A stretch of 64,000 nt of DNA from an uncultured delta proteobacterium (GTDB taxonomy: Bacteria; Myxococcota_A; Polyangia; Fen-1088), in NCBI GenBank assembly GCA_963849735.1, contig CAWKJE010000003.1, forward strand, positions 67,595 to 131,594. Reading direction: 5' to 3'. Shown here in pieces: positions 1 through 37,590 of the stretch. Made by a program: the position numbers and the translations under genes. The notes under the pieces are model-generated. The model was given only the letters and a program-made list of their open reading frames with translations, did not search any database and had not been told where the DNA came from. Within the stretch, counting starts at the first letter, position 1. Every line of letters begins with the position of its first letter.

Positions 1-633
1 CGATGGGGTCGTTATGGCGAACCTGACCTTCTGCTCGTGCTCCAAGACGAGCACGATGTTGCTGCGCGCGCGATCCTGATCGAGGCAAAGCTGTATTCCC
101 CCAAGAGTGGGTCGGCAGGGGAGGACGACTCCAGCGTAGCCAACCCTGAAGTACCGGATCCGGACCAACTCGTCCGCTACTGGCAGGGACTTAGCACTCG
201 CTACGCTGGCGTCGAGCGCACCATCATCTACCTGACCTCTCACGGGGTGCCGCCTGCCGCCGAGTTGGTCGAGTCACTACGGCGGGAACCGTCGATGAGG
301 CTCGCGTGGCTCTCATGGCGAGACATCTGGAGGATCGCAGACCAGGCGGCGAAGAACAGCCTGGCCGCTCAAGATCTCGCAACCCTGCTGCGCCACAAGG
401 GTCTCTACTCCTTTTCCGGATTCTCGGATTTGAATGCTTTGATGCCAGTCCGAGCCAGTGCCCGCTACTGGCTCGGTCGTCATTGGTTCGCACAACTAGG
501 ACTGTCGATGTCACTGCCGTCCGGGGTGTTCCGTGGTAATACGTGGTTCAGGAGTTCGGTGCCCGATGTCGGCTCCGGACGTTTTCTAACCGGGGCGGCC
601 ACGGCATCCGACAAGGGGTTGAGGGGAAGATGA
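1..633 (+). CDS. PD-(D/E)xK-type nuclease family protein, C-terminal part (5' end outside window)
   Basis: Frame 1 is open from base 1. Motif 'GEPDLLLVLQDEHD...AILIEAKLY' fits the PD...(D/E)xK nuclease signature. Stop TGA 631-633 overlaps the ATG of the next gene (ATGA). Confidence 0.4.
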   Translation, partial: RWGRYGEPDLLLVLQDEHDVAARAILIEAKLYSPKSGSAGEDDSSVANPEVPDPDQLVRYWQGLSTRYAGVERTIIYLTSHGVPPAAELVESLRREPSMRLAWLSWRDIWRIADQAAKNSLAAQDLATLLRHKGLYSFSGFSDLNALMPVRASARYWLGRHWFAQLGLSMSLPSGVFRGNTWFRSSVPDVGSGRFLTGAATASDKGLRGR

Positions 634-1193
634 CCCAAGAAACTGTAGGCCAGTCCGCCAAACACGTTGTCAGGTTCCTTCGGGAGCTTCACTCGGACGT
701 CGCTGCAATGGTGCGCAGCCTCGATGGTCTGTTCGAAAAGCGTGGGTGGATTCCGCCACCCAGATACCAAAACAAGATCGCAGAGGAGCTTTCGAATGGT
801 CTCTCGGGAAGCGATGGCTGGGTACTTTCCTCGCTCTACCGCATGTATGTGCCCGCAACCGAGGTCGAGACCATTCGGCAGGCAGTGCTCCTCCAGGTGG
901 ACTTTGCGCCTGCGGCGTTCGACCACGCGGTTGTATTCGTAGGCGTGGCAAGGTTCGATGCGCCCGTAACCGCCGACATCATTTGGAATGGGTGGCGATC
1001 CTCAGAAGCCGTCGAAGCCTATTTGGCGGGTGTCCAAGATGCCACCGGATCGCTGCCACGCGAGACATGGCGCGAAGACGTCGCTCCACGAGCCGCCGAG
1101 ATGATCGGCTTCGTGTTGCCGTTGGATGGGCTCACGGACGAGAGACTGCTGGGTTCCTCGGTGGTGGATCCGGCGCTTCGCGCGCTCGAGTAG
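630..1193 (+). CDS. hypothetical protein (187 aa), translationally coupled to upstream nuclease gene
   Basis: ATG at 630 preceded by GGGGAAG RBS. ATGA overlap with the upstream stop. No recognisable motif. Confidence 0.5.
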   Translation: MTQETVGQSAKHVVRFLRELHSDVAAMVRSLDGLFEKRGWIPPPRYQNKIAEELSNGLSGSDGWVLSSLYRMYVPATEVETIRQAVLLQVDFAPAAFDHAVVFVGVARFDAPVTADIIWNGWRSSEAVEAYLAGVQDATGSLPRETWREDVAPRAAEMIGFVLPLDGLTDERLLGSSVVDPALRALE

Positions 1194-2183: not shown

Positions 2184-4316
2184 TCACGCCCAGCGTGAAG
2201 GCCGAAGATCAAGTGCAAGTCTTCTGGCTTCCTCTTGGTCCAGAATCCGGGCGTCGACGCGTCCTCGCTGGTCGCGGGCGAGGCGAGCGCCCGGTCTCCC
2301 AAGCAAGATCGAGTGCCATCGCTGGCGCGCCACGAGCTGGTGCAGCATCCTCTCGTCGTAAGTTCCTCGCACAAGGGTGAAGTACACGTTGACTGGCTCT
2401 TTCAAGATACGCCCGAGCCTGTCGGAGCGGCCCTCGCGCTGCTCCATCCGAGCCGGATTCCACTCGATGTCAAAGTGTACCAGGTGAGCGCTGAAGCTGT
2501 GGAGGTCGATGCCCTCTGAACCGACGTTGCTGGCCACGAGCGCCCACGGTGCAAGTGGACTACGGAACGCCTCGCCAGCAGCATCTCGGTCGCGGCGATC
2601 GTCGTGACCGGTGTAGGTTCGCACGACCCCGAAGTTGCCTATCGCCGCAATGGTTGCCTGGACGCCACGCCTCTCCTCTCGCCGGAGACGCGCCCACCAG
2701 CCCCCATCTCGGTCGGCGCTGAGCACTGCCGCGAGCCCTGCCAGGCGACGCTCCAGGTCAACCAGCACGAGGGCTTGAAACTTCCGATGACCGAACAAGT
2801 CACGCGCGAGGCCGGCGTCGGGCCTGTCAGCCATGCTCTGTAGAGCCTCGACAATGGCGCCGGCGTCGGAGCTGGCTGCAAGGTGTTCATCGTTTTCGAT
2901 CAACCGCTCCACGGCTCGACGGACGCGAATGACACCGCTCGGTGCAGCCCTGGCCATAACGCGCCAGGCGCGTCGACCACGGACCACCTGCCATGCCTCG
3001 TCGATTGCCGCCGACAGCGACTCCTGAAGCTCGCGCGCGGCCCTTCCCACGAAGCTGGTGAAGATGAGCATCTTGCGGGGAAACCCGTCTTCAGCGGCTC
3101 GGACGAGATCTATCTCGGCTTGGGCTCGCGCCCATCTCTCAAGCGCAGCGAGGCGGGCAGACTGGGGCGGGCCGCTGTTTCGAGTCCCAGCGCTCCCGGC
3201 TTGCGCTGGCGTTGACAGGGCCTGCCTGAGCTTGTTCGGCACGAAGGTGCGTGGCCCATCCGCGAGAGCAAGCCGCCGTCGGAGGTACCAGGTCTCAAAT
3301 TTCTCGGTCGGCCCGATCAGGGAAGGGAGTAGCTCCTTCAGCTCTTGCTCCCGCATTTGATCGGGGGCTTTGATGCACGACGCAACTCCGTCCTCGGCGA
3401 TGAGGTGATAGCGCCTTCCGGCAGTCCGGACATTGCTGCGGACGAGGGCTTGACCAAGCGTTCGCTCCGCTCCGCGCTTGAGGGCTCGATAAGGTTCATC
3501 TCCTCCGCGGAAGAACTCAGCCAACGCCGCCACGAAATCTCGCACTGGTGGGCGGGAAAGCACGCGATGCGCCCCATGGCTCCCGTCGATAATCGCTCCG
3601 AAGATCTGGTGGAGCTCGCGAGGTTCGAGCTGGAACGGTGTCGCGGTCAGCAGCAACGCTGCTCGCACCCGTCTCGACCAGTTGGCGATGGTCTCCATCG
3701 CCTCGCGCGCCTCGCGATGGTGTGCTTCGTCCACGATGAGCACATCCCATGGCTGGGACCTCAACGCGGCAAGCCGGCTGCGGCCTGAACCCACCTTCTT
3801 CCGGAGCACGTTCCAGTTGCAGATGTACGTGCCAGCGGGCACCTCGACTCGAGCCCGCCGAATGGTTCCGGACGGAAGGTCGTCGAGATCGCCGCGCCGC
3901 CGGATCTCGTAGGGCTCCGTTAGGGTGTCGGCGACGAAGGCGCGCCGAGCGCGGCGAGCAGCCCAACGTTGCAGGTGTGCGGAGAACCCTTCTGGATCCC
4001 GGACCTCGCGAGACCATTTGGAGACGAGGCCCGGTGGGCAAAGAACGAGGACGCGTGCGGCCTGCTTCCGGATGTTCTGGCGGCGCCCGCCCTCCGATCG
4101 CTCCTTGCTCCGCTCCACGAGGATGAGGGCGCTCGCCGCTAACGCCTCCCACGTCTTGCCGAGCCCGACGCCGTCTGCCAACACCGCCCCGTACTGTTCG
4201 ACCCAGGTCCGACCGGTGTCAAACCGTCGCCCACGCGCATCGGCGAGCCTGCGTCTCACCCAGATCGCAACCTCTTCCTGATGGGCGAGCCCTGTTGAGA
4301 TCGTGTTGCGGCTCAT
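2184..4316 (-). CDS. SNF2-family (SF2) helicase, compact 710 aa
   Basis: Motif I 'DGVGLGKT', motif II 'LIVDEAHH', motif III 'LLLTATP'. C-terminal helicase motifs 'GSEGIDLH' and 'HFDIEWNPARMEQREGRSDRLGR' (SNF2 motif VI). ATG at 4316 overlaps upstream stop (ATGA). Confidence 0.85.
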   Translation of the reverse strand: MSRNTISTGLAHQEEVAIWVRRRLADARGRRFDTGRTWVEQYGAVLADGVGLGKTWEALAASALILVERSKERSEGGRRQNIRKQAARVLVLCPPGLVSKWSREVRDPEGFSAHLQRWAARRARRAFVADTLTEPYEIRRRGDLDDLPSGTIRRARVEVPAGTYICNWNVLRKKVGSGRSRLAALRSQPWDVLIVDEAHHREAREAMETIANWSRRVRAALLLTATPFQLEPRELHQIFGAIIDGSHGAHRVLSRPPVRDFVAALAEFFRGGDEPYRALKRGAERTLGQALVRSNVRTAGRRYHLIAEDGVASCIKAPDQMREQELKELLPSLIGPTEKFETWYLRRRLALADGPRTFVPNKLRQALSTPAQAGSAGTRNSGPPQSARLAALERWARAQAEIDLVRAAEDGFPRKMLIFTSFVGRAARELQESLSAAIDEAWQVVRGRRAWRVMARAAPSGVIRVRRAVERLIENDEHLAASSDAGAIVEALQSMADRPDAGLARDLFGHRKFQALVLVDLERRLAGLAAVLSADRDGGWWARLRREERRGVQATIAAIGNFGVVRTYTGHDDRRDRDAAGEAFRSPLAPWALVASNVGSEGIDLHSFSAHLVHFDIEWNPARMEQREGRSDRLGRILKEPVNVYFTLVRGTYDERMLHQLVARQRWHSILLGRPGARLARDQRGRVDARILDQEEARRLALDLRPSRWA

Positions 4317-5383
4317 TTCGCCCTCGAAGCGCGGTTGGGTGAGTTGAGATACTCGACGAGCGCGCGCCGTACGTGTGTCGGGATGCCCAGTTTCGCAACC
4401 TGCGCGCAGAGGAGGTCGAGTCGCGCCTTCGCGTAGGCCGAGCCAGCGGCGGCCGCAGCGATTCTCTTGCGAAGAACCGCCACCGCGACCGCCAGCCGAT
4501 CCAGCTGGCCTTCGTGCTTGGCCTCGGTCAGCGCCTGCACGTCGCCATCGTCCTCATCGAATGTGTCGTCGCTCTGCTCATCGCCAGGCTTGACTTTCTC
4601 GCCGGCTCTCCGAGCGGGCCAGAGTCCCAGCTCCTCCCAGACAAGATCGAGGAGCGCGCCATCCGGGGTTCCGTGATCGCGGGCGGCCAGAGGGACAACT
4701 ACCGGGAATGGGGAGAACGCCTTGCCAACGCGCTCCCACAAGATTCCGCCCCAGGAGTCGCTGCTTCTCGACGACGCGGACTTTCCGAACAGCGAATGCA
4801 TCTGCCTTCGGTCTTCGATCCATCCGACCCTTCGAGTGACGCGGACTTGCACGAGTTTGCTCTTCGGTGCCGCTGCAATCTCCACGGTTCCCTGACGAAG
4901 CATGGGGACTTCTATTCGCAAGCTCGGTCCCGCGCTGCCTTCGGAAATCTCACCCGCCAGGACCACGCCGGCCGGCTGAACGGGGGCGTGCGCAGCGGTG
5001 ACCGCAAAGGTCTTGTCCGCGGGCTCGAAAAGGTCGGCTAGGTCACTGCGCAGAGCTGCAACCTCGGCCGTCCCGAGCTTCGACGCCACCAGTAGCTCGA
5101 CGTTGCCACCGCCAGCGACGGCCCGTGTCAGCGCCGGGTGCGTGCAGTTCGCGCTCCCGAAGAACAACCTACTGCCCGCAGCTGAGTCTTCGATCAGGTA
5201 TGCCTTCGCGTGGACGCGAGTCGGTCGTCTCTCGAGATTCTGCCTCTCCCTCGTCTGCCGACTGCTCGCTCTTGCCTCGGGGGGAGGGCTTCTCCACGCG
5301 GATGTGAACCCGGTTGCCATCGCCCAAGTTTGGGCCGCGTCCGTTCCGTCCTTCCGTGAAGACGGCGATGCGTGAGGCGCCAA
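4313..5383 (-). CDS. PLD-family nuclease, C-terminal HKD half; N-terminus is in another frame, probably one frameshifted gene with 5169-6128
   Basis: HKD motif 'HAKAYLIEDSAAGSRLFFGSANCT' at codons 58-81, about nt 5212-5141, inside the region overlapped by the upstream ORF tail. Stop overlaps helicase start. No credible in-frame start downstream of the overlap. Confidence 0.55.
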   Translation of the reverse strand: MAPHASPSSRKDGTDAAQTWAMATGFTSAWRSPPPEARASSRQTRERQNLERRPTRVHAKAYLIEDSAAGSRLFFGSANCTHPALTRAVAGGGNVELLVASKLGTAEVAALRSDLADLFEPADKTFAVTAAHAPVQPAGVVLAGEISEGSAGPSLRIEVPMLRQGTVEIAAAPKSKLVQVRVTRRVGWIEDRRQMHSLFGKSASSRSSDSWGGILWERVGKAFSPFPVVVPLAARDHGTPDGALLDLVWEELGLWPARRAGEKVKPGDEQSDDTFDEDDGDVQALTEAKHEGQLDRLAVAVAVLRKRIAAAAAGSAYAKARLDLLCAQVAKLGIPTHVRRALVEYLNSPNRASRAK

Positions 5384-6128
5384 GCGCGCGCTTCAGCTTG
5401 CGCAGCACACTTGGATCGACGCCCTCTGGTGATGCGGCTGCGGAGTGCCAAGGCGAGAGGACTGTAAGCTCTGGTGCATTCGCAACACGGCCTTGGCCGC
5501 TCCGCGTCGCCGCCATTTGGTCGACGAGAGCGACGTTGAGCGAATCGAGAAGCCCGCTTGGGTCTTGGCGAATTCCCGCCAGTGCCACGGCGACAAACTC
5601 GCGTGCGGACTCCGGCAGCAGAAGATGCTTGTGCCTCACCAGCCGGTCCAGGAAGTGCGCCGCGCCGCCGAGCAGCCGCCGCCCAGTCTCCGTGTCGTTG
5701 TCGGCAAACAGCATCATCTCAAGGTTGCCCCCGAGTCCACCGGACGTCAGGTTCGCGGAGCCAACGCCCACGAGATAGCGGCTGCCTGCGGTCAGCAGCA
5801 CGAGCTTCGGGTGAAAGACGCCGCCTCGAGGGCATCTGACGGGCGAGACCTGATAGCGGCCAAACCGTCGTGGGCCGATCTGCCGGAGATGAGCCTGCAG
5901 CGCGCCTGCGTCGGCGGCGACGAGCGTGCGGAACTGGCGTCCGCGGCGCGTAAGCTCTGGGAAGAGGACGGCCTCGAACCGCTCGACATCGAAGTCGTAC
6001 GTACAAAGGATCGCTCGCCTAGGAGCGGCAGATCCGTATCGGGAAATAAACGCTCGGAGAACGTCGGCTGTCCGCTGCCATCTGAGGCTGCTTGCCGTGC
6101 GCGCCACCTCAGAGCCCTCGCAGGTCAT
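5169..6128 (-). CDS. PLD-family nuclease, N-terminal HKD half (likely 5' part of a frameshifted two-HKD gene)
   Basis: ATG at 6128 ('MTCEGSEV...'); the ORF's first ~112 codons upstream look like noncoding low complexity. HKD-like motif 'HPKLVLLTAGSRYLVGVGSANLTSGG' around nt 5813. The C-terminal ~45 codons (5304-5169) are low-complexity and overlap the second HKD frame. Confidence 0.55.
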   Translation of the reverse strand: MTCEGSEVARTASSLRWQRTADVLRAFISRYGSAAPRRAILCTYDFDVERFEAVLFPELTRRGRQFRTLVAADAGALQAHLRQIGPRRFGRYQVSPVRCPRGGVFHPKLVLLTAGSRYLVGVGSANLTSGGLGGNLEMMLFADNDTETGRRLLGGAAHFLDRLVRHKHLLLPESAREFVAVALAGIRQDPSGLLDSLNVALVDQMAATRSGQGRVANAPELTVLSPWHSAAASPEGVDPSVLRKLKRALGASRIAVFTEGRNGRGPNLGDGNRVHIRVEKPSPRGKSEQSADEGEAESRETTDSRPREGIPDRRLSCGQ

Positions 6129-7395
6129 TCGCGACCCTGCTGAACGCAGCCATCCGGTACGCATGCGGGCGAACGAGCGTCGGGATCGACCACCCTTCGC
6201 CCGCATCGCGGGCGATCTCGAACTGCCCCGAGCCGACTTCTCGCACCCACGCGTCATCGCCCTTGGCAGACCGATGCCGTGCCAGCAGCATCGCCAGCCC
6301 ATCGGCGACCCGTGAGCTCGGGCCTTTGCTCTTACTGATGAAGATCCGAGCGAGCTCGAATGCACTGGGATCTGGTAGCTGTGTCCCGCTGTCGCGCAAT
6401 CGATCGTTGAGCCGAAGCGCAAGGCGGAGCGATGCGATTCCCAGGGCGAGTGAGGCTGTCTCATCCGTCAACGCAATTGCGCCAAGAGGAGGGACCGGGT
6501 GTTCTCGGGACAAGAGGTGTGCGAGGTCGCGTTCAACATGACGCTGGCGTCCGGCATCGATGGAGCGCACCCAAACAGTGAATAGTGTGTTCAGGCCCAC
6601 GGACAGCCGCTCCCACACCGCAGCCGCTCTCAGCGTCTGGAGGGGTTCGGGCAGCGTTGGCGGCCGGCGACCCTCGTAGCGCGGCAAGACCGTCTCGGGG
6701 CTGAGTCCTTCACGCGAGAAGACGGGACGAATCTCGCGGGCAAATGCCGCTCTCCGCGTTCGTACATCTGAGGATTCGAGGTCGAGGCGGCCACGGATTG
6801 AGAGCCCGAGGACGTCCCGAATCTGGCGGCGCTCGTTCGATGAGATCGCCGAGAGGCAAGCTCGACCAGGAAGTTGGCTGCTAGGGCCCTTGCGATGACG
6901 GACGTCCTTGCGGAATAACTTCGCTGCGTCGACGCCTGCGTCCGTGAGCGAAAAACGCGGGGCCCCCTCGATAAGTCCCAGAGCGACCATCGAAGCCCGG
7001 TAGGCACGCCAGGCAGGCACCTTGTACACGTGACGAGGATCTGCCGGTATCCGGTCACGAGGAAGCGTGCGGATGTTGCGGGAGCCAACGAACTGGCAGG
7101 ACTCGGCGTGGCTCGCGTCTTCGTCGGACAGGAGCGCCTCGGCGAACACGAGCGCGACCTCGTAGCGATGGATTCGGTGTTCATCGTAATCATGGCCGCT
7201 CTCGTCACGGGCCCACGCTAGGAACGTGAAGTAGCGCGCGCGTGTGGTCAGGACCGAAAGCCCAGGGAGCAAACGGTCGGCGAGCCTGTCTGCGACCGCC
7301 TGAAGCGCGAGGGCGTCGGTCGCCCTGGAGCGAAGTGGATCGGGCTCAACCCATGCTGGCAAGACGCCGGAGAGCACCCCCCCATCATAAACCAC
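6109..7395 (-). CDS. hypothetical protein (428 aa), first gene of helicase/PLD operon
   Basis: Long ORF with GTG start at 7395. Stop at 6109 overlaps the start of the PLD gene (6128). No recognisable motif. Confidence 0.55.
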   Translation of the reverse strand: MVYDGGVLSGVLPAWVEPDPLRSRATDALALQAVADRLADRLLPGLSVLTTRARYFTFLAWARDESGHDYDEHRIHRYEVALVFAEALLSDEDASHAESCQFVGSRNIRTLPRDRIPADPRHVYKVPAWRAYRASMVALGLIEGAPRFSLTDAGVDAAKLFRKDVRHRKGPSSQLPGRACLSAISSNERRQIRDVLGLSIRGRLDLESSDVRTRRAAFAREIRPVFSREGLSPETVLPRYEGRRPPTLPEPLQTLRAAAVWERLSVGLNTLFTVWVRSIDAGRQRHVERDLAHLLSREHPVPPLGAIALTDETASLALGIASLRLALRLNDRLRDSGTQLPDPSAFELARIFISKSKGPSSRVADGLAMLLARHRSAKGDDAWVREVGSGQFEIARDAGEGWSIPTLVRPHAYRMAAFSRVANDLRGL

Positions 7396-7416: not shown

Positions 7417-8263
7417 ATGTTTCGCACTCGGTTTGGCTTGTGCGTTGGGCGTGCGCCCTGGAGGCTGGCAGCGTTGCGCGGTCTTCGGGGAGCCGCACTA
7501 CCTGGCCACACCCTGGTGGTCTACGATCCGGACACTCTCCTGGTGGTTGACTTGGTGCCGTGCGAAGACGGCCACGCCCAGGAACGGACCCTCGTTCCCG
7601 CGGTCATGGGTACCGTGAAGAAAGGTCAGCTCTGGATAGCGGACAGGAATTTCTCGACCAGGGCCATCATGGCCGACATCGACCGGGCTGGCGGCGCCTT
7701 TGTCATTCGGGAACATGCCGCTTCACCGAACCCGACCGAGCTCGGCTCGGCGCATAGGAAAGGGCAGACTGACTCCGGGGACTTCTACGAGCAGGCAGTT
7801 GAGATTGGTCTCGAGGACGGCACGACCATGGCTTTGCGCCGCATCGAGGTGCGACTGAAAACCCCGACGGAAGACGGCGAGACGGTCATCTGGATCCTGA
7901 CCAACCTGCCCAAGAGGCTCGGGGCTGAAGTCGTAGCGGAGGCGTATCGGCATCGATGGAAAATCGAGAACAGGTTCCAGTGGCTGGAATCGGTCCTGGA
8001 GAGCGAGATACGCACCCTGGGATATCCCCGGGGCTGCGCTGTTCGCGTTCTCGGTGGCGGTACTTGCCTACAATGTCTTGAGCATCATCCAAAGCGCGAT
8101 CGAAACTGCTCACGACATCCAACCCGGGAAAAGTGAACAGATCTCGCTCTATTACGTCGTCAACGAGATCAAGACCACATACGAAGGAATGGTCATTGCC
8201 GTGCCGGAGGAAGAATGGGATGGGTGCCGGTCAATCTCCCCCAAGCAGGTCGCCCAAGGGTGA
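7417..8263 (+). mobile_element. IS4-family DDE transposase remnant (5'-truncated and frameshifted pseudogene)
   Basis: 'WIADRNF' (second D region) and 'YRHRWKIENRFQWLE' (YxxRxxxE signature). The N-terminal ~150 aa including the first D are missing. Reading frame shifts near 8030-8054 (CCCCGGGG run); the expected continuation 'AALFAFSVAVLAYNVLSII...' lies in the 8054-8263 frame. Confidence 0.65.
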
Positions 8264-8369
8264 TGCCCACAGCGCTGTTGAACTTTAAGGGGTAGCGGCG
8301 GCTCCCTGACCGGCCCGAAGATAGGGCTTGTTCAGGACCAACAGTCCCCGAGGGGACAAGGAGCCGCCG

Positions 8370-9669
8370 ATGAAAAGGAAAGCAGAGAACACGACGAACG
8401 GGAAGGCCGAAGGCATGAATTTGAGGGGCCTGGCCACGATGGTGCGGCAAGTAATGCTGCCGATGGTCGCAGGTATCGTAACCACGAAGAAGGCATTGCA
8501 CGAGTGGGTGGCCGAGATGGGGATGGCCGCACTGGTTGGCGTGATGGAGGCCGACGCTGAGCGGGTGGTCGGATGTCGCAAGGGCGGGCACCAGCAGGGA
8601 CGCCGGCTGAGCCACTGGGGCTACACGGACACGCCCTTCCCGTACGACGGACGGCAGGTGGTGCCGCCGCGCCTGCGCGTTCGCACTGTCGACAAGAATC
8701 AGGAGGTGGCGCTGCCTACGGTGGCGAACTTCCAGTCGCTGGACCCGATGAGCATGCGCGTGGTGGACCAGATTCTACTTGGTGTATCAACGCGGGGCTA
8801 CGAGGCAAGCCTGGGCGCAGGACCTGCGGGACTGCGGACCAAGGGAGGGAAGAAGAGTCGCGTGAGCGAGGTGTTCGTCCAGGAGACCAGGCGGCGGATG
8901 AAGGACCGTCTGGCGGAAAGGCTGTATGGCCTGGACTTGGTGGCGATGCTGCTCGACGGTGTGCATGTTGCCGAACACGCAATCGTCGTTGGCCTGGGCA
9001 TAGCTCGAGACGGGGGCAAACACATTCTTGGGCTACGTCAGGGCTCAACGGAGAACGCCATGCTGTGCACGGAGCTGCTCCAGGACTTCGTGGCGCGTGG
9101 GCTGAAGAATATCGAGGGCTTGCTCTACGTGGTGGACGGCGGTAAGGGCCTGCGCACCGCCATACGCGACGTGGCCGGCAACAGCGCAGTGGTACAACGC
9201 TGCCAACAGCACAAGCGCCGGGACGTGGTCGGTCACCTGCCCCAGTCGCGCCAGAAGACCGTCGACCGGATGCTGGTCGATGCGTACAAGAGCGAGAGCC
9301 TGAAGACAGCGCGCAAGCGGCTCGGCCAGATCGTCTCGTGGCTGGAGCGGAACGGTGAAGAAGACGCAGCGGCGAGCCTACGCGAGGGACTGGAAGAAAC
9401 TCTGACCGTCTGGAAGCTCGATCTGCCCGAGCCGCTCCGGCGGTTCTTCGGGACGACCAACGCCATCGAGAACGTCCTCGGAGTCGTGCGCCGGGTGAGC
9501 CGCAACGTGAAGAACTGGCGTCACGGCGCGATGGCGAAGCGGTGGACCGGCATCGGCCTCATAGCTGCTGAGAAGAACTTCCACCGAATCAAGGGTCATC
9601 GCCACATGCCCGCACTTGTCGAGGCCCTCAGGCGACTCCGTCGCCGACAACGTCCGCCGCAAGGAATCC
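8370..9669 (+). CDS. IS256-family (Mutator-type) transposase lacking its own stop codon; ORF runs into the CRISPR array
   Basis: 'QRCQQHKRRDVVGHL' (IS256 QRCxVHKxRN signature). 'LYVVDGGKGLRTAI' and 'TTNAIENVLGVVRRVSRNVKNWR'. ATG at 8370 with AAGGAGCC RBS. No stop until 9866, which is inside translated repeats. Confidence 0.75.
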
Positions 9670-12600
9670 GTTTCAATCCACGCCCGGCCCCGAGGGGCCA
9701 GGCGACACTCGTACCGCTTTCACTGCATCTTCGTGGTCGAGTTTCAATCCACGCCCGGCCCCGAGGGGCCAGGCGACCCGTTGGGCCCGCGCAGCACGTC
9801 CGCCCGGCACAGGTTTCAATCCACGCCCGGCCCCGAGGGGCCAGGCGACGTCCTTCGGCCCCGTGATCATGAGAGCGCAGCTCGGTTTCAATCCACGCCC
9901 GGCCCCGAGGGGCCAGGCGACATCATTCGCGAGCTGCGGGTGGAGGGGTGGCTCGGTTTCAATCCACGCCCGGCCCCGAGGGGCCAGGCGACTCCGAGCA
10001 CGCCGAGCTGCTGCGGGCCGAGCCGGTTTCAATCCACGCCCGGCCCCGAGGGGCCAGGCGACATGTGCCAGTCGCCATGTGGCCGGAGGGCACGGTTTCA
10101 ATCCACGCCCGGCCCCGAGGGGCCAGGCGACACAGCTCCGAGGTGCCAGCCACGCCCACGGAGGTGTTTCAATCCACGCCCGGCCCCGAGGGGCCAGGCG
10201 ACGGTCACGGAAAGTACGCTGTAGCGTCTTGTCCTGTTTCAATCCACGCCCGGCCCCGAGGGGCCAGGCGACCCTGGGCTTGATACTCGCTACTGGGTTT
10301 CACGTGGTTTCAATCCACGCCCGGCCCCGAGGGGCCAGGCGACGCGAAGCTGCCCGACATCTTCTACGTGCGTGCGGTGTTTCAATCCACGCCCGGCCCC
10401 GAGGGGCCAGGCGACACTGCATCGCGCTCTGCTACCCGCCTGCGATTCTGTTTCAATCCACGCCCGGCCCCGAGGGGCCAGGCGACTCACGCAGAATGCC
10501 CAGCAGGTCCAAACCCAGAAGTTTCAATCCACGCCCGGCCCCGAGGGGCCAGGCGACCTGAGCGACCTGGAGCTAGGCAAGCGCGCGTCGGTGTTTCAAT
10601 CCACGCCCGGCCCCGAGGGGCCAGGCGACATGCAAGGCCAATGGCCAGATCTACGGGCTCGACGTGTTTCAATCCACGCCCGGCCCCGAGGGGCCAGGCG
10701 ACATGTTCCCGCCATCGTCCAGCGGGGCAAGGAGGCGTTTCAATCCACGCCCGGCCCCGAGGGGCCAGGCGACCCCGGTGGAACGCCTTGAGCGCCACGA
10801 AGATCCGAGTTTCAATCCACGCCCGGCCCCGAGGGGCCAGGCGACCATCTTCGCCACCGCACCCGTTGCCGGCGAGCCGTTTCAATCCACGCCCGGCCCC
10901 GAGGGGCCAGGCGACGCTGGCTGTGACCGTGAGTCGGCAACCGGACCTTGTTTCAATCCACGCCCGGCCCCGAGGGGCCAGGCGACGATGACGAGCGCCC
11001 AGACGGTGGTAATCCCCTCGTTTCAATCCACGCCCGGCCCCGAGGGGCCAGGCGACCCAGGTTGGATTGGGGCTTGTTGCCCGACAGGGTGTTTCAATCC
11101 ACGCCCGGCCCCGAGGGGCCAGGCGACTTGTCCGTCTTGCTACAAAGCCAAGATGTCGCAGGTTTCAATCCACGCCCGGCCCCGAGGGGCCAGGCGACAC
11201 CCCAGCGCCGTCGTGACGCCAGCCCCGGTTATGTTTCAATCCACGCCCGGCCCCGAGGGGCCAGGCGACAAGGCGCCTCCAATAACCCGGGGCTGGTAGC
11301 CAAGTTTCAATCCACGCCCGGCCCCGAGGGGCCAGGCGACAAGCAGGTGGCTTGGGCGGCCAAGCTGCGCATTGTTTCAATCCACGCCCGGCCCCGAGGG
11401 GCCAGGCGACGAGAGCGCCGTCAGGTCGTACGTCCCGATTAGCCGGTTTCAATCCACGCCCGGCCCCGAGGGGCCAGGCGACTATCGAACGCAGGGACGA
11501 TGGCGCGCAGGATGTGTTTCAATCCACGCCCGGCCCCGAGGGGCCAGGCGACATGGCCGTCGTGGTGCCGGTGCCCGTGCCCGACTGGTTTCAATCCACG
11601 CCCGGCCCCGAGGGGCCAGGCGACTCACCGCGAGCCCGCCAGGCGCAACCGAAGCCGTGGGTTTCAATCCACGCCCGGCCCCGAGGGGCCAGGCGACGTG
11701 CTGAAATGATCGACACCGACGCCGTGTGGATAGTTTCAATCCACGCCCGGCCCCGAGGGGCCAGGCGACACGTCCCGCCGTAAGTCGTCCCCTGCATGAT
11801 CTCGTTTCAATCCACGCCCGGCCCCGAGGGGCCAGGCGACAGCGTCAGTCGGTCTACCAGCTCTACAAGGCTCGGTTTCAATCCACGCCCGGCCCCGAGG
11901 GGCCAGGCGACCCTGCTGCGCGGGTAGGTCCACGGCCCAGGACACGACGTTTCAATCCACGCCCGGCCCCGAGGGGCCAGGCGACACCATGCGGATCTGC
12001 TGCATCACGTCCAGGGAGGGGTTTCAATCCACGCCCGGCCCCGAGGGGCCAGGCGACGCCATGACAGGCCCAACCACCCGCCCAATGTGCTTTGGTTTCA
12101 ATCCACGCCCGGCCCCGAGGGGCCAGGCGACCGGGCAGCCACAGCGGGAGTCCGACGGCAAGTAGGGTTTCAATCCACGCCCGGCCCCGAGGGGCCAGGC
12201 GACAGTGACACCAACGAGATCACGGCCGATGATCTGAAGTTTCAATCCACGCCCGGCCCCGAGGGGCCAGGCGACTCATCGTGCCGTTCGAGATCAGCGA
12301 CACCTTCCGGGTTTCAATCCACGCCCGGCCCCGAGGGGCCAGGCGACGTCCCCGAACACAGCGTCCGTGTCCGTGGCGAACTGTTTCAATCCACGCCCGG
12401 CCCCGAGGGGCCAGGCGACCACTGGAGGTCTGCGCCGACACGCTCAGGGTGATGTTTCAATCCACGCCCGGCCCCGAGGGGCCAGGCGACGTGCTGCGCA
12501 GCGGGCATCCGTCGGGCTCTATGAAGTTTCAATCCACGCCCGGCCCCGAGGGGCCAGGCGACTCTCCGTCGAGCAGCACTTGTAAGTCAGGCTTCGGGTT

Positions 12601-15600
12601 TCAATCCACGCCCGGCCCCGAGGGGCCAGGCGACGGCGCCGGCGCAGACCGAGGCGCCTGCTCCCAAGTTTCAATCCACGCCCGGCCCCGAGGGGCCAGG
12701 CGACGTCGTGGAACCCGAGCCACTTGTCGACCAGGTGATCGTTTCAATCCACGCCCGGCCCCGAGGGGCCAGGCGACCTCACCGATCCGTCTCTTGGCCA
12801 TCACAATATGTTTCAATCCACGCCCGGCCCCGAGGGGCCAGGCGACAGGCGCGCGAGGGACAGGCGCTGGCGGTTATCGAGTTTCAATCCACGCCCGGCC
12901 CCGAGGGGCCAGGCGACACGGGCCACATGACATATCGCTCTGGCAACAATACGTTTCAATCCACGCCCGGCCCCGAGGGGCCAGGCGACACCGAAGGCTT
13001 TGCGCTGCACCGCCAGATGCCGGGTTTCAATCCACGCCCGGCCCCGAGGGGCCAGGCGACCTGCGCCTGGGTCCATTCGTCCGGTTCGGCACGTAGTTTC
13101 AATCCACGCCCGGCCCCGAGGGGCCAGGCGACCTGCGCCTGGGTCCATTCGTCCGGTTCGGCACGTAGTTTCAATCCACGCCCGGCCCCGAGGGGCCAGG
13201 CGACAGAGACGAGCATCGCAGGCATTGCAGCTCTTAGTTTCAATCCACGCCCGGCCCCGAGGGGCCAGGCGACACGCCGCGTGGGCTGAAGTTCTTGCGG
13301 GAGCTGGTTTCAATCCACGCCCGGCCCCGAGGGGCCAGGCGACGGGCGAAGGCCACACCATTACGTACGCGAAAGGAGTTTCAATCCACGCCCGGCCCCG
13401 AGGGGCCAGGCGACGTATCTGCCAGGAGAGTGCACCGAGGATTGCTTCTAGTTTCAATCCACGCCCGGCCCCGAGGGGCCAGGCGACTGGCTCCGATGCC
13501 AATACGGGAGTCAACTATTTGTTTCAATCCACGCCCGGCCCCGAGGGGCCAGGCGACTCAAGTCGCGCAACCCGGCGCGCGCCGAGCTTGAGTTTCAATC
13601 CACGCCCGGCCCCGAGGGGCCAGGCGACGCGGACAATCGGCCATGACCCGCCGCAAGCGCCAGTTTCAATCCACGCCCGGCCCCGAGGGGCCAGGCGACG
13701 GTAATGGGCCGCCACGTCGTTCCCGTCTGCTGGGTTTCAATCCACGCCCGGCCCCGAGGGGCCAGGCGACCCGGTCACCAGTTGACTGCCAATGCCCCAG
13801 CGGCGGTTTCAATCCACGCCCGGCCCCGAGGGGCCAGGCGACCCGCGGCCCAGCCTCCTCTCCGCAGCGGAGCCAGGTGTTTCAATCCACGCCCGGCCCC
13901 GAGGGGCCAGGCGACCTTTCAATGGCGGCGGATTCGGTAGCGCCGAGAGGTTTCAATCCACGCCCGGCCCCGAGGGGCCAGGCGACACCATTAGGTCGTC
14001 GCCCTTGAAGCCGCAGAAGCGTTTCAATCCACGCCCGGCCCCGAGGGGCCAGGCGACCTTGTGCCGCCCGTCTCCCCTACGTCGGGCAAGTCGTTTCAAT
14101 CCACGCCCGGCCCCGAGGGGCCAGGCGACTTTGCGCGCCCGGTTCACGATCATCATCCATTGCTGTTTCAATCCACGCCCGGCCCCGAGGGGCCAGGCGA
14201 CCGGGCGCATCTTGGTGGGGCGCCCAGTACACGTAGTTTCAATCCACGCCCGGCCCCGAGGGGCCAGGCGACTGTACTTGTACGTCACGGCGGGCGCGTG
14301 CCGAGTGTTTCAATCCACGCCCGGCCCCGAGGGGCCAGGCGACGTGCGCCCGTCGGCAAACTTGGGCTGGCTCACGCCGTTTCAATCCACGCCCGGCCCC
14401 GAGGGGCCAGGCGACCCTGGCCGGCGATCTGCTCCGCCGTGCTGCCATCGGAGTTTCAATCCACGCCCGGCCCCGAGGGGCCAGGCGACGTGGGCAAGCT
14501 GGGCGGTGTGTCAGTACACGGACGGGTTTCAATCCACGCCCGGCCCCGAGGGGCCAGGCGACCGCCGGGGACGGTGCCCTACTGGCCGCCGCAAGCGTTT
14601 CAATCCACGCCCGGCCCCGAGGGGCCAGGCGACTTGAGCGGCACGAGGCCCCCCGACCAGAGCGCCGCGTTTCAATCCACGCCCGGCCCCGAGGGGCCAG
14701 GCGACCGGCGAAGAATGCGTCGCGGCGGTTGAGGCACAAGTTTCAATCCACGCCCGGCCCCGAGGGGCCAGGCGACCGTGAGCGAGCTTGGGCCGGCGCA
14801 GCCCATCGAGTTTCAATCCACGCCCGGCCCCGAGGGGCCAGGCGACGCGCGAACGCCCTCGTCATGGCAGACGATGGCGTGTTTCAATCCACGCCCGGCC
14901 CCGAGGGGCCAGGCGACCGTAGCCTGTCGCCGGGTTGCGCAGCTTCGCGCGGTTTCAATCCACGCCCGGCCCCGAGGGGCCAGGCGACGGCGAAGGGAGT
15001 TCTAGGCATCTGGATTTCTTTGTTTCAATCCACGCCCGGCCCCGAGGGGCCAGGCGACGTCTCCCGAGGCATTGAGGCCGCTAGGCTGATTGTCGTTTCA
15101 ATCCACGCCCGGCCCCGAGGGGCCAGGCGACTGCGGCGGGCGTCATGTGGGTATTCACTGCGATGTTTCAATCCACGCCCGGCCCCGAGGGGCCAGGCGA
15201 CAAGAAAGGGCTTGTCAATAGGTCATTTTGCCCCAGTTTCAATCCACGCCCGGCCCCGAGGGGCCAGGCGACACCCTGACCGTGGGGACCGCGCCGCAGA
15301 CCATCTCGTTTCAATCCACGCCCGGCCCCGAGGGGCCAGGCGACATCGACCAGTAGCGAGGCGGCAGCAGGCGCTTACGTTTCAATCCACGCCCGGCCCC
15401 GAGGGGCCAGGCGACGAGCACGGCGAAGCCTTGCGGCTATGGCACAACAAGTTTCAATCCACGCCCGGCCCCGAGGGGCCAGGCGACTCTCAAGCGTTTC
15501 ACGGACTGGACTGGCAACGAGTTTCAATCCACGCCCGGCCCCGAGGGGCCAGGCGACAGACGGCCGAGCATGCTGATTGGCCAGTCAACGAGTTTCAATC

Positions 15601-18600
15601 CACGCCCGGCCCCGAGGGGCCAGGCGACACCGCGCGCTGGGGGCGAAGCTGTGACCCGCCGTGTTTCAATCCACGCCCGGCCCCGAGGGGCCAGGCGACA
15701 AGACTGTGCCCTGCTTCCCCTTGGCGATCTTATTGTTTCAATCCACGCCCGGCCCCGAGGGGCCAGGCGACTGGGTCCTTGCCGAACACGATAGGGCCGA
15801 GGGTGTTTCAATCCACGCCCGGCCCCGAGGGGCCAGGCGACTCGGCGACAGGTTGAACCAAGCGGTCAACGACCTGTTTCAATCCACGCCCGGCCCCGAG
15901 GGGCCAGGCGACCAGCGCAGCCCATGTTCATCCTCGAACGGCAGATGTTTCAATCCACGCCCGGCCCCGAGGGGCCAGGCGACGAATGGACCGCGACGGG
16001 GCTCGCCTTGGTGACGGGTTTCAATCCACGCCCGGCCCCGAGGGGCCAGGCGACAAGATCGCGGCGGCCGTCTTGCCGTCGATCACCAGGTTTCAATCCA
16101 CGCCCGGCCCCGAGGGGCCAGGCGACACCCGCGGGTGCCTGCTGCCCGGACACACCCGAGGCGTTTCAATCCACGCCCGGCCCCGAGGGGCCAGGCGACT
16201 CAGCTGCGTCGACTTGGAGCCCGTGAAGCTGGCGTTTCAATCCACGCCCGGCCCCGAGGGGCCAGGCGACCAAGCAGGTGGCTTGGGCAGCCAAGCTGCG
16301 CATTGGTTTCAATCCACGCCCGGCCCCGAGGGGCCAGGCGACAGAGACGGCCTGGACTGGTACGTAGAGGTAGGCGGGTTTCAATCCACGCCCGGCCCCG
16401 AGGGGCCAGGCGACCTACAGGGGAGGTTAGGCGTGCTCTGTCGCAGCTGTTTCAATCCACGCCCGGCCCCGAGGGGCCAGGCGACCAGACGACCAGATCA
16501 TTTTTCTTGACAAAGAACGTTTCAATCCACGCCCGGCCCCGAGGGGCCAGGCGACGATCACTTGACTGGCCTACCGGACTTGGTGGAGGAGTTTCAATCC
16601 ACGCCCGGCCCCGAGGGGCCAGGCGACCGGCAGCATGCGCACGTTTGAGTACAAGATGCTGTTTCAATCCACGCCCGGCCCCGAGGGGCCAGGCGACATG
16701 GAATCCGCTTGAGCAGGAAACCAAGCTTGAGTTTCAATCCACGCCCGGCCCCGAGGGGCCAGGCGACAAAAACAGCTTGAGGTTGATCGCGCACTGGTCG
16801 GTTTCAATCCACGCCCGGCCCCGAGGGGCCAGGCGACCCCGCACATCGCCAAGCTAGCCCGCGTGCCCGAGATGTTTCAATCCACGCCCGGCCCCGAGGG
16901 GCCAGGCGACCCAAGTGCCGAGGTTTGAGGCTGCATGATGACCATGTTTCAATCCACGCCCGGCCCCGAGGGGCCAGGCGACCAGGTATGCGGCACAGCT
17001 ACGCTCTATGTAGACAGGTTTCAATCCACGCCCGGCCCCGAGGGGCCAGGCGACCTACCGCTGGATGTGTGCTACTCGTGGCAGTGACGTTTCAATCCAC
17101 GCCCGGCCCCGAGGGGCCAGGCGACAGCTCTGCACGCGATTGTCCGCCGCGTACCAGGAGTTTCAATCCACGCCCGGCCCCGAGGGGCCAGGCGACCTCA
17201 CGCGCGCTAGCGCTACCCTGTAGGCATGTGGTTTCAATCCACGCCCGGCCCCGAGGGGCCAGGCGACCTTTGTGCCGGAGGAGGTGTAACATGAGTACCG
17301 CTGTTTCAATCCACGCCCGGCCCCGAGGGGCCAGGCGACCTGCAGGTTCGTGTCAGGCGCCGCCAGGTGCTTGGCGTTTCAATCCACGCCCGGCCCCGAG
17401 GGGCCAGGCGACAAGTGCGACGAGCAGGTTCAGCGCATCGCCGAGATGTTTCAATCCACGCCCGGCCCCGAGGGGCCAGGCGACCGGCTGACGGACGAGC
17501 AGCTGACCGCCATAGCGGAGTTTCAATCCACGCCCGGCCCCGAGGGGCCAGGCGACCGCAACGATCGCGCTCTCCTGGCCGCGCAGCATGCTGTTTCAAT
17601 CCACGCCCGGCCCCGAGGGGCCAGGCGACCCGCTACCCGGTCGAGGTCTTGTGCGGGGCATGGTTTCAATCCACGCCCGGCCCCGAGGGGCCAGGCGACC
17701 CGCGGGGCAGGGAGGCAAGCCTTGATCAAGCACCTGTTTCAATCCACGCCCGGCCCCGAGGGGCCAGGCGACCATGGTTGAGCGATTCCAGGGCCACGCT
17801 GTCCTGTTTCAATCCACGCCCGGCCCCGAGGGGCCAGGCGACTCAGCTCGCGTCGCCAGTCGCCACGATGACTCTTGTTTCAATCCACGCCCGGCCCCGA
17901 GGGGCCAGGCGACCTCCAGCCGTTCCAGGCGCGTGCGCACGGCCGAGTTTCAATCCACGCCCGGCCCCGAGGGGCCAGGCGACACGAAGAAGGGTCGAGG
18001 GCATGGAAAAGACGATGTTTCAATCCACGCCCGGCCCCGAGGGGCCAGGCGACGCGTCGGCCAGGGGTACGAGTTGCCGCCAAAGTAGTTTCAATCCACG
18101 CCCGGCCCCGAGGGGCCAGGCGACCGCGTCCGGGTGGACGGCGGTCACCAAGGTGATGTTTCAATCCACGCCCGGCCCCGAGGGGCCAGGCGACCGGGCT
18201 GAGCACATGGGACTGCAGGTCGGCCAGGTTTCAATCCACGCCCGGCCCCGAGGGGCCAGGCGACGTTTCTCACCACGAGCGACGGTCAACGCATCGAGTT
18301 TCAATCCACGCCCGGCCCCGAGGGGCCAGGCGACTGGCGCGCAGAACAGCGCCAGATGAGCCAGAACGTTTCAATCCACGCCCGGCCCCGAGGGGCCAGG
18401 CGACAAGGCCCCCTCCGAAGAGCGGCACAACTCATCAAGTTTCAATCCACGCCCGGCCCCGAGGGGCCAGGCGACGGCCTGGTGGATTCAATGCTCGCCC
18501 GCCGACATGTTTCAATCCACGCCCGGCCCCGAGGGGCCAGGCGACAAGAGTCGGCCGAGCACGAGGGCAAGGACGCCGAGTTTCAATCCACGCCCGGCCC

Positions 18601-18901
18601 CGAGGGGCCAGGCGACCTGCAAGGGCGGCAGGATGTCCTCGGCGACGTCCTGTTTCAATCCACGCCCGGCCCCGAGGGGCCAGGCGACCAAGACGCGCAT
18701 CTCGGTAACGTTGGCCACGGTGTTTCAATCCACGCCCGGCCCCGAGGGGCCAGGCGACCTGAGGATCTCCTCCCAAAGCAGCGATGAGCTGAGTTTCAAT
18801 CCACGCCCGGCCCCGAGGGGCCAGGCGACAAGCCGCGCCCGAGCATTGCAACGGCGCCGAGAAGGTTTCAATCCACGCCCGGCCCCGAGGGGCCAGGCGA
18901 C
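9670..18901 (-). CRISPR. Type I-C CRISPR array, 130 repeats and 129 spacers; repeat (plus strand) GTTTCAATCCACGCCCGGCCCCGAGGGGCCAGGCGAC
   Basis: 130 copies of a 37-bp repeat with 71-72 bp period and spacers of 32-37 bp. Minus-strand repeat GTCGCCTGGCCCCTCGGGGCCGGGCGTGGATTGAAAC ends in the type I-C 'ATTGAAAC' signature. Same strand as the adjacent cas genes. Confidence 0.98.
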
Positions 18902-19084
18902 GCACCCGCTAAGAATATGGCAGATTTCGCCCACCTACTGGGGCTTCGGCGCGAAGGGTGCAAGTCTCGCGCAGTTGCGCCGCTGTGGCTGGCGGCGCCA
19001 TGGTCGTACTCTTCGAATTTCAGAGAGCAAGTAGCAAGGCGCGAACGGTCACGGACTTTCATGTCCAATCCACCTTCGCGCTGC
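18902..19084 (-). promoter_or_regulatory. CRISPR leader (between cas2 stop and first repeat)
   Basis: 183-bp non-coding, lower-GC segment lying between cas2 and the repeat at 18865-18901, on the transcribed (minus) strand upstream of the array. Confidence 0.6.
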
Positions 19085-20410: not shown

Positions 20411-20412
20411 GA

Positions 20413-21036: not shown

Positions 21037-21074
21037 GAAAGGGGTTCTTCTTGAAACCTAGGCGAGGGTCCAGC

Positions 21075-21944: not shown

Positions 21945-21961
21945 GGTGGATCTCCTTGATA

Positions 21962-23941: not shown

Positions 23942-23942
23942 G

Positions 23943-27129: not shown

Positions 27130-27139
27130 CGCGCTCACC

Positions 27140-37495: not shown

Positions 37496-37516
37496 CGAGA
37501 ATTATTAGCTTATTTG

Positions 37517-37590
<74 letters not shown>

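What the first reader, a model, noticed from the sequence alone, without database searches (positions are those of the whole stretch)
2184..7395. Uncharacterised three-gene helicase/nuclease operon (unknown 428-aa protein, two-HKD PLD nuclease, compact SNF2 helicase): candidate novel anti-phage defense system
Three co-directional genes with tight coupling: stop of 6109-7395 overlaps the PLD start at 6128, and the PLD stop overlaps the helicase ATG (ATGA at 4313-4316). They encode a protein with no recognisable motif, a phospholipase-D-family nuclease with two HKD motifs ('HPKLVLLT...GSANLT' and 'HAKAYLIED...GSANCT'), and a 710-aa SNF2-family helicase (GLGKT / DEAH / TATP / QREGRSDRLGR). The cassette sits in a defense island next to IS remnants, a 130-repeat type I-C CRISPR-Cas locus and a PD-(D/E)xK nuclease gene. 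SNF2 helicase plus PLD nuclease partly resembles DISARM (DrmD+DrmC), but no methyltransferase, DrmA or DrmB (DUF1998) is present. Mokosh-type systems use an SF1 helicase, not SNF2. It therefore fits no described system that I can assign with confidence.
Basis: partly seen in the sequence, partly recalled or inferred. Interest (0 to 1): 0.85.

Follow-up and report, generated by a model that had tools for sequence, protein, structure and literature searches.

The report
Divergent Azaca-type phage defence operon
The three genes are real and always travel together, but they are a distant relative of the already named Azaca anti-phage system (ZacA, ZacB, ZacC) rather than a new kind of system, and the break in the nuclease gene here is most likely a sequencing error.

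Summary
The operon exists on the minus strand: a 428-aa protein (6109-7395), a two-HKD PLD nuclease (4313-6107) and a 710-aa SNF2 helicase (2184-4316), with tight translational coupling. Two corrections to the finding. (1) The PLD gene is not one ORF in this window. An extra A at 5239 (GATC to GAATC) splits it. Three other assemblies of the same organism have an intact gene, and 9 of 10 differences between assemblies fall on GATC motifs, so the frameshift is very probably a basecalling artefact at a methylated site. (2) The '428-aa unknown' is not motif-free. It and all 42 aligned homologs hit only the ZacA profile (PADLOC), and 33 of 42 hit DUF6361 (Pfam). The intact PLD hits ZacB best and collinearly, and the helicase hits ZacC among other SNF2 profiles. 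DUF6361 protein + PLD + SF2 helicase is the published definition of Azaca (Millman 2022), whose Bacillus example cleaves T4 DNA only when all three proteins are present. The trio is strictly conserved: PLD follows A in 27/27 related loci and the helicase follows in 23/23, mostly Planctomycetota and Acidobacteriota MAGs. It is divergent: only the N-terminal ~90 residues of A match, and the helicase is ~300 positions shorter than the ZacC profile. Verdict: new, divergent member of a known kind; modest interest.

The parts
6109..7395 (-). zacA-like gene, 428 aa. The N-terminal DUF6361/ZacA module covers about residues 25-165, with the invariant TxRARY motif at 7228-7260. The rest is helical with no known fold. 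The start codon is uncertain (GTG 7395, GTG 7377 or TTG 7362).
   Evidence: ORF. PADLOC ZacA E 8.8e-11 over residues 25-116, and 42/42 homologs hit ZacA only. Pfam DUF6361 scores 22.7 bits (cut-off 25), with 33/42 homologs at E<=0.01. AF2 model pLDDT 90, pTM 0.87. No solved homolog.
4313..6107 (-). zacB-like two-HKD PLD nuclease gene. It encodes 597 aa from GTG 6107 (604 aa from ATG 6128) once the extra base at 5239 is removed. As written in the window it is split into two frames.
   Evidence: The intact form hits ZacB at 3.3e-18, residues 94-357 against profile 98-342/586. H/K/N of both motifs are invariant in 9 orthologs.
5238..5239 (-). One-base insertion (AA instead of A; minus strand GCAGAATCTC versus GCAGATCTC) that frameshifts the PLD gene in the linker between the two HKD halves. 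Probably a basecalling or assembly artefact at a GATC site.
5745..5813 (-). HKD motif 1 (HPKLVLLTAGSRYLVGVGSANLT)
5141..5212 (-). HKD motif 2 (HAKAYLIEDSAAGSRLFFGSANCT), in the other reading frame in this window
2184..4316 (-). zacC-like SNF2-family ATPase/translocase, 710 aa. Walker A at 4152-4172, DEAH at 3717-3731, motif III TATP at 3630-3647, motif VI at 2409-2441. Its ATG overlaps the PLD stop codon (ATGA).
   Evidence: Pfam SNF2-rel_dom 4.3e-12 and Helicase_C 2.8e-9. PADLOC DrmD 1.4e-23 and ZacC 1e-15. Best solved relative is RapA at 7e-21. Motifs are invariant in 7 orthologs.
7417..8136 (+). IS fragment (DDE_Tnp_1 transposase remnant) lying 21 nt upstream of, and divergent from, zacA. 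It may have displaced the native promoter.

Best explanation
This is a divergent member of the Azaca family of anti-phage systems: zacA-like (DUF6361 module protein), zacB-like (two-HKD phospholipase-D-fold nuclease) and zacC-like (SNF2-type SF2 ATPase), co-translated from one operon on a tRNA-linked defence island. Likely mechanism, by analogy with Bacillus Azaca and from the domains: the three proteins form a complex; the SNF2 subunit uses ATP to engage or translocate on double-stranded DNA; the PLD subunit, whose two HKD halves form one active site within a single chain, cuts the DNA through a covalent phosphohistidine intermediate; the ZacA-like subunit is an obligatory partner of the nuclease that probably helps recognise or hold foreign DNA. 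Shown here: homology, invariant catalytic motifs, strict gene linkage, translational coupling and island context. Shown elsewhere for BmAzaca: all three proteins, the PLD site and the ZacC Walker A are needed to cleave T4 DNA, with more than 1e6-fold protection against T4. Inferred: complex formation and DNA targeting in this clade, the role of ZacA, and how self is distinguished from non-self (possibly by DNA modification state). The frameshift in this window is most likely a sequencing artefact, so the organism probably has an intact system.
For: Profile hits are specific to Azaca for A (ZacA is the only PADLOC family hit, in 42/42 homologs) and for B (ZacB is the top hit and is collinear across both HKDs). 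DUF6361 is the only Pfam family hit by A homologs, in 33/42. C is an SF2/SNF2 ATPase with ZacC among its top hits. The gene order is A-B-C, and A and B are close to the profile lengths (428 vs 396; 597-604 vs 586). The trio is conserved in 27/27 (A-B) and 23/23 (A-B-C) related loci, with A identity from 82% down to 33% and unrelated flanks. Both HKD motifs and all helicase motifs are invariant. The context is defence-related: a type I-C CRISPR-Cas locus, WYL regulators, IS fragments, and an integrase next to tRNA-Ala. Published function and composition of Azaca: 10.1101/2025.07.10.664194, 10.1101/2024.10.26.620412, PMC10952713. Frameshift as artefact: the intact gene is present in 3 other assemblies, and 9 of 10 inter-assembly differences lie on GATC.
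Against: Homology of A to ZacA/DUF6361 is detectable only over the N-terminal ~90 residues, and the window protein is just under Pfam's gathering score (22.7 vs 25 bits). The helicase scores better against DrmD than ZacC profiles, aligns to ZacC only from residue 423 onward, and is ~300 positions shorter than the ZacC profile. I could not obtain canonical Bm/Kp Azaca sequences for a direct comparison, and the AFDB library was unavailable. No experiment exists for this clade. As written in the window, the nuclease gene is broken, and an IS fragment sits 21 nt upstream of zacA, so expression is unproven.
Confidence: 0.75

Rival explanations
1. A new three-gene defence system unrelated to any named one.
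For: Profile matches to Azaca are partial: about 22% of the ZacA profile and about 20% of the ZacC profile. NCBIfam has no model that hits A or B. There is no solved structure or global fold match for A.
Against: A and B hit ZacA and ZacB specifically and reproducibly across the whole family. The domain composition and gene order equal the published Azaca definition.
Confidence: 0.07
2. A remnant or minimal form of DISARM (DrmD helicase plus DrmC PLD).
For: DrmD profiles give the best helicase E-values (1.4e-23 PADLOC; NCBIfam DISARM_DrmD 7.8e-29). DrmC profiles hit the HKD motifs weakly.
Against: The NCBIfam DrmD score of 100.6 bits is far below its 610-bit cut-off. DrmC hits are only 6e-4 to 9e-7 and cover a single HKD, whereas this PLD has two HKDs and matches ZacB far better. 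No DrmA, DrmB (DUF1998) or methyltransferase is seen next to the trio in the loci whose called genes I inspected. DISARM has no DUF6361 protein.
Confidence: 0.03
3. The copy in this genome is a dead, decaying cassette: the nuclease is frameshifted and the promoter was removed by an IS insertion.
For: The extra base at 5239 truncates the nuclease after HKD1 (312-319 aa product). The source record calls two fragments. An IS remnant lies 21 nt upstream of zacA. Only one weak promoter-like match was found, no more than expected by chance.
Against: Three other assemblies of the same sequence have the intact gene. Inter-assembly differences are confined to GATC motifs in both directions, which is typical of systematic basecalling error rather than mutation (P about 1e-7 to 1e-8 for 5 of 6 events in the first comparison). 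There are no other lesions in 5.2 kb.
Confidence: 0.1
4. A non-defence role, for example DNA repair or remodelling, or maintenance of a mobile element.
For: SNF2 ATPases such as RapA (the best solved relative) and PLD nucleases also act in housekeeping and plasmid biology. Some relatives lie next to conjugation or replication genes (L006: TraG/RepA).
Against: The location varies between genomes and is often beside defence-type or mobile-element genes: CRISPR-Cas, WYL, PIN, UvrD/PD-(D/E)xK, integrases and transposases. The only characterised relatives are anti-phage. No relatives were found on viral contigs.
Confidence: 0.05

Closest known systems
Azaca (ZacA/ZacB/ZacC; Millman et al. 2022; biochemistry in bioRxiv 10.1101/2025.07.10.664194)
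   Same: Three-gene operon in the same order: a DUF6361-module protein, a two-HKD PLD nuclease and an SF2 helicase. A and B hit the ZacA and ZacB profiles specifically. A and B have similar sizes to the profiles. Defence-island location.
   Different: A matches only in its N-terminal ~90 residues. The helicase is ~710 aa against a 1019-position ZacC profile, and generic SNF2/DrmD profiles score it higher. The hosts are Planctomycetota and Acidobacteriota MAGs rather than Bacilli or Gammaproteobacteria. No functional data exist for this clade, and target specificity (T4-type modified DNA for BmAzaca) is unknown here.
DISARM (DrmD SNF2 helicase + DrmC PLD, with DrmA, DrmB and a methyltransferase)
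   Same: It combines an SNF2 ATPase with a PLD-fold nuclease. DrmD profiles give the best helicase E-values.
   Different: There is no DrmA, DrmB or methyltransferase. DrmC is a small single-HKD protein, whereas this one is a ~600-aa two-HKD protein. DISARM has no DUF6361 partner. NCBIfam DrmD and DrmC scores are far below their cut-offs.
PADLOC candidate system PDC-M27 (untested candidate)
   Same: PDC-M27B hits the PLD (1e-7 to 1e-9) and PDC-M27C hits the helicase (5e-18), so it is probably another PLD + SNF2 cassette.
   Different: No PDC-M27 component hits the 428-aa protein. ZacB outscores PDC-M27B by about 10 orders of magnitude on the intact PLD.
Two-gene 'DUF6361-module protein + long PLD' pairs on plasmids (Polaromonas pPNAP03, Roseovarius sp. 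S88, Myroides pFM-G13, Undibacterium pUYM01); unnamed as far as I could find
   Same: The same N-terminal module (E about 1e-14) is paired with a homologous two-HKD PLD (E 1e-20 to 1e-24), with overlapping or adjacent genes.
   Different: There is no SNF2 helicase. The module protein is ~530-550 aa and the PLD ~830-845 aa. In Myroides the pair is embedded in a type I R-M operon.

Membership tests
Azaca | ZacA: a protein carrying DUF6361 (PF19888) | tested here: inconclusive
   The window protein scores 22.7 bits against a gathering score of 25, over residues 24-66 only. 33/42 homologs hit DUF6361 at E<=0.01 (best 5.2e-7) and hit nothing else. The PADLOC ZacA profile hits at 8.8e-11 and in 42/42 homologs, but only over profile positions ~30-115 of 396. 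Homology of the N-terminal module is secure. Full-length equivalence is not shown.
Azaca | ZacB: a PLD-fold nuclease with HKD catalytic motifs | tested here: met
   For the intact protein, ZacB is the top PADLOC hit at 3.3e-18, residues 94-357 against profile 98-342/586. Both HxK...GSxN motifs are invariant in 9 orthologs. In this window the gene carries a 1-nt insertion that is probably an artefact.
Azaca | ZacC: an SF2 helicase/NTPase with Walker A and B motifs | tested here: met
   SNF2-rel_dom and Helicase_C are found in Pfam. GxGKT, DEAH, TATP and motif VI are invariant. The ZacC profile hits at 1e-15 (window) and 1.5e-19 (L005). Specific orthology to ZacC is not established: DrmD scores higher, and the protein is ~300 positions shorter than the profile.
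Azaca | The three genes form one conserved operon (A-B-C) | tested here: met
   The stop of A is followed one base later by the PLD GTG, and the PLD stop overlaps the helicase start (ATGA). A-B is found in 27/27 loci and A-B-C in 23/23 loci with enough sequence.
Azaca | Confers phage resistance; all three proteins are required for DNA cleavage | not testable with these tools
   Shown for BmAzaca only (10.1101/2025.07.10.664194).
DISARM | Core DrmA (helicase) + DrmB (DUF1998) + DrmC, plus a methyltransferase (class 1 also has DrmD) | tested here: not met
   The called genes flanking the trio in the inspected loci include no DUF1998 protein, DrmA-like gene or methyltransferase. NCBIfam DrmD scores 100.6 bits against a 610-bit cut-off, and DrmC 13.8 against 133.
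Mokosh | SF1-type RNA helicase (MkoA/MkoC) with a PLD nuclease | tested here: not met
   The helicase is SNF2 (SF2), and no Mokosh profile appears among the PADLOC hits shown.

The most novel reading that the evidence does not exclude
The compact clade seen here (a ~420-aa ZacA-like protein, a ~600-aa PLD and a ~700-aa SNF2 ATPase, in Planctomycetota and Acidobacteriota) could be a functionally distinct subtype within a wider, undescribed superfamily. In that superfamily the DUF6361 N-terminal module would act as a dedicated adaptor for a two-HKD PLD nuclease, and the pair would be plugged into different sensors or motors: an SNF2 ATPase in the trio, EVE (modified-base reader) fusions in the long class, and type I R-M operons on plasmids. 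In that reading Azaca is only one branch, and the target cue of this branch may differ from the T4-type hypermodified DNA preferred by BmAzaca.
Probability: 0.3. Interest if true: 0.5.

Novelty: new member of a known kind. Interest (0 to 1): 0.3.

Why it matters
Azaca is a validated defence system that is still poorly understood mechanistically, and the role of ZacA is unknown. This divergent clade gives comparative leverage. It shows which ZacA residues are invariant over large distances, for example the TxRARY motif and a C-terminal Hx3K-x4-W motif. It shows that a ~700-aa SNF2 motor is the partner in every locus examined. It shows that the ZacA-module/PLD pair also exists without any helicase. 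Together these point to ZacA as the nuclease's partner rather than the motor's. It also extends Azaca-type systems to Planctomycetota and Acidobacteriota. On the practical side, it shows how a methylation-linked basecalling error can turn a defence gene into an apparent pseudogene.

Full report
OBSERVATION. The minus strand of window 2184-7395 carries three co-directional genes. The middle gene is not. The stated span 4313-6128 is 1816 nt, which is not a multiple of three. The first HKD motif lies in ORF 5169-6464 and the second in a different frame, ORF 4313-5383. All the quoted motifs exist. The PLD stop and helicase start overlap (ATGA at 4313-4316). The stop codon of the first gene (TGA at 6111-6109) is followed one base later by a GTG (6107) with a GAGGG upstream. 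This is the same TGA-n-GTG arrangement and 'MARTA...' N-terminus as in orthologs L003, L005 and L006, so GTG 6107 is a better start than ATG 6128.

THE FRAMESHIFT. A sister assembly (ENA ERZ25039486, locus L001) encodes the identical 428-aa protein and an intact 604-aa PLD. Across the 5.2-kb trio the window differs from it by one base, an extra A at 5238/5239 (GCAGAATCTC versus GCAGATCTC). The window's own 260-kb record calls the gene as 319-aa and 284-aa fragments. The intact form is also present in Logan assemblies ERR11523671 (L019) and one further contig with 603/604 identical residues. Over the 17.4 kb shared with L001 there are six difference events, and five lie on a GATC motif (GATC/GATT, GATC/GAATC, AGATC/GAATC). 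GATC covers 1.6% of bases there, so P is about 1e-8 to 2e-7. All four differences from L019 are also at GATC. Errors run in both directions between assemblies. From general knowledge, this is the signature of systematic long-read basecalling errors at a methylated motif. I therefore regard the frameshift as very probably an artefact: the true sequence would be GATC, giving an intact gene of 597 aa from GTG 6107. It lies in the variable linker between the two PLD halves.

WHAT THE GENES ARE. Against PADLOC-DB the 428-aa protein hits one family only, ZacA (E 8.8e-11). The PLD fragments hit ZacB, and the helicase hits a range of SNF2 profiles including ZacC (1e-15), with DrmD best (1.4e-23). The intact PLD hits ZacB first (3.3e-18), collinearly over residues 94-357 against profile 98-342 of 586. 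PDC-M27B (7.6e-9) and DrmC (6e-4) fall far behind. Pfam gives DUF6361 for protein A at 22.7 bits, just under the 25-bit gathering score. Of 42 aligned homologs, 42 hit ZacA and nothing else in PADLOC, and 33 hit DUF6361 and nothing else in Pfam. NCBIfam has no model for A or B, and its DrmD and DrmC models score far below their cut-offs. Published descriptions define Azaca as a helicase, a PLD nuclease and a DUF6361 protein (10.1101/2024.10.26.620412; PMC10952713). For Bacillus Azaca, all three proteins, the nuclease active site and the ZacC Walker A motif are required to cleave T4 DNA. The operon gives more than 1e6-fold protection against T4, with a preference for T4 (glucosyl-hmC) DNA. Mutating conserved ZacA residues had no effect in vitro (10.1101/2025.07.10.664194).

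CONSERVATION. Protein A has 67 homologs of ~420 aa in the 5.8-billion-protein set. A profile search of 1.84 billion representatives finds 629 relatives. Gene neighbourhoods were read for relatives from 82% down to 44% identity (L003, L005, L009, L006, L007, L008) and for a second clade of ~373-394-aa proteins (L014, L015, ERZ1426609). All show A, then a PLD of 552-604 aa, then an SNF2 ATPase of 673-727 aa, with unrelated flanks. After adding genome and metagenome scans, I scored six-frame ORFs with HMMs built from the PLD and helicase alignments. The PLD follows A directly on the same strand in 27 of 27 loci with room. The helicase follows the PLD in 23 of 23; some of these loci are near-duplicates of one another. 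One locus (L028) has a split helicase. Named hosts are MAGs of Solibacteraceae, Planctomycetia, Planctomycetaceae and Pirellulales. No relative was found in IMG/VR. Both HxK...GSxN motifs (H106, K108, N126; H306, K308, N327) are invariant across nine PLDs down to 29% identity. GxGKT, DEAH, TATP and QREGRxDRxGR are invariant across seven helicases.

MECHANISM (best supported). Shown here: homology to ZacA and ZacB, an SF2/SNF2 ATPase, intact catalytic motifs under purifying selection, obligate linkage, and translational coupling. Inferred from BmAzaca and family knowledge: a ZacABC-like complex in which the SNF2 subunit supplies ATP-dependent DNA engagement or translocation. The single-chain two-HKD PLD would cleave DNA through a phosphohistidine intermediate. 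The ZacA-like subunit would be an essential partner. Two side observations bear on ZacA's role. First, the same N-terminal module occurs in ~480-700-aa proteins, and one of them (P0146) has an N-terminal EVE domain, a reader of modified bases. Second, plasmids of Polaromonas, Roseovarius, Myroides and Undibacterium carry a two-gene pair: a module protein (~530-550 aa; E about 1e-14 to the module profile) plus a homologous two-HKD PLD (~830-845 aa; E 1e-20 to 1e-24), with no SNF2 gene. In Myroides the pair sits inside a type I R-M operon. This suggests that the module is the nuclease's partner and possibly a DNA-recognition adaptor, and that the motor is exchangeable. That is inference, not demonstration.

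CONTEXT. The trio lies beside IS fragments (7417-8136 DDE_Tnp_1, only 21 nt from the zacA start; 8328-9866 Transposase_mut), a ~130-repeat CRISPR array (9670-18902), type I-C cas genes (cas1, cas4, cas7, csd1/cas8c, cas5d and cas3 at 19385-27207) and a WYL/WCX regulator (27140-28249). Two more WYL proteins lie just beyond the window start in L001. A tyrosine integrase (36317-37495) abuts tRNA-Ala (37516-37589), after which housekeeping genes begin. This is consistent with a tRNA-linked island. The promoter of the operon is unresolved.

VERDICT. The interpretation as a system that fits nothing described is not supported. This is a divergent Azaca-type operon, best filed as a new member of a known kind, and possibly a compact subtype. 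Interest is modest (0.3). The main value is comparative information on the unexplained ZacA subunit and the extension of Azaca-like systems to new phyla.

Noticed in passing
window 16081, 13934-13935, 10651, 9329, 5239, 4099, 3890, 2600 (versus L001 and L019): Nine of ten differences between three assemblies of the same sequence lie on GATC motifs (GATC/GATT, GATC/GAATC, GATC/AATC). This points to GATC methylation in this organism and to systematic long-read basecalling errors. GATC is also over-represented in the window (332 observed versus about 209 expected). No methyltransferase was found among the window ORFs I scanned.
   Followed up: partly
L016 3325-7517 (Polaromonas pPNAP03), L017 3466-7529 (Roseovarius sp. 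S88 plasmid), L020 6926-11043 (Myroides pFM-G13), L021 6995-11180 (Undibacterium pUYM01): A helicase-less two-gene pair: a ~530-550-aa protein with the ZacA/DUF6361 N-terminal module followed by a ~830-845-aa two-HKD PLD homologous to ZacB. The profile matches were tested for L016 and L017; L020 and L021 rest on tblastn, gene sizes and annotation. In Myroides the pair sits between hsdS and hsdR of a type I R-M operon. RefSeq annotates these proteins as hypothetical or PLD-like, and I found no name for the pair.
   Followed up: partly
P0146 (673 aa), from the representative search: An EVE domain (PF01878, E 4.4e-7; a reader of modified bases) is fused N-terminally to the ZacA-type module. Many other proteins of 480-700 aa share only the first ~160 profile positions.
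   Followed up: partly
window 36317-37589: A tyrosine integrase gene lies directly next to tRNA-Ala(CGC), and housekeeping genes (efflux pump, DinG-like helicase, histidine kinase, UDP-glucose dehydrogenase, GH3) follow. This is the likely boundary of the island that holds the CRISPR-Cas locus and the trio. GC content is lower (0.59-0.61) across 20-36 kb.
   Followed up: partly
window 7417-8136 and 8328-9866: Two IS transposase fragments (DDE_Tnp_1; Transposase_mut) are wedged between the zacA start and the end of the CRISPR array. The first is 21 nt from zacA and divergent from it, so the operon's native promoter may have been replaced.
   Followed up: no
L008 5496-7004 and L014 12014-13558: A DUF2779 protein (PF11074) flanks the trio in two unrelated loci, upstream in one and downstream in the other. 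It may be an accessory gene or a coincidence.
   Followed up: no
L028 4435-6624: In one metagenomic relative the SNF2 gene is split into two ORFs at profile position ~430. This is either a real pseudogene or another assembly error.
   Followed up: no
window 37-1193 (+ strand): Two co-directional ORFs convergent with the helicase gene (called as 292 and 187 aa in L001) have no Pfam match. Two WYL/WCX regulators lie just beyond the window start in L001 (18090-20089).
   Followed up: no
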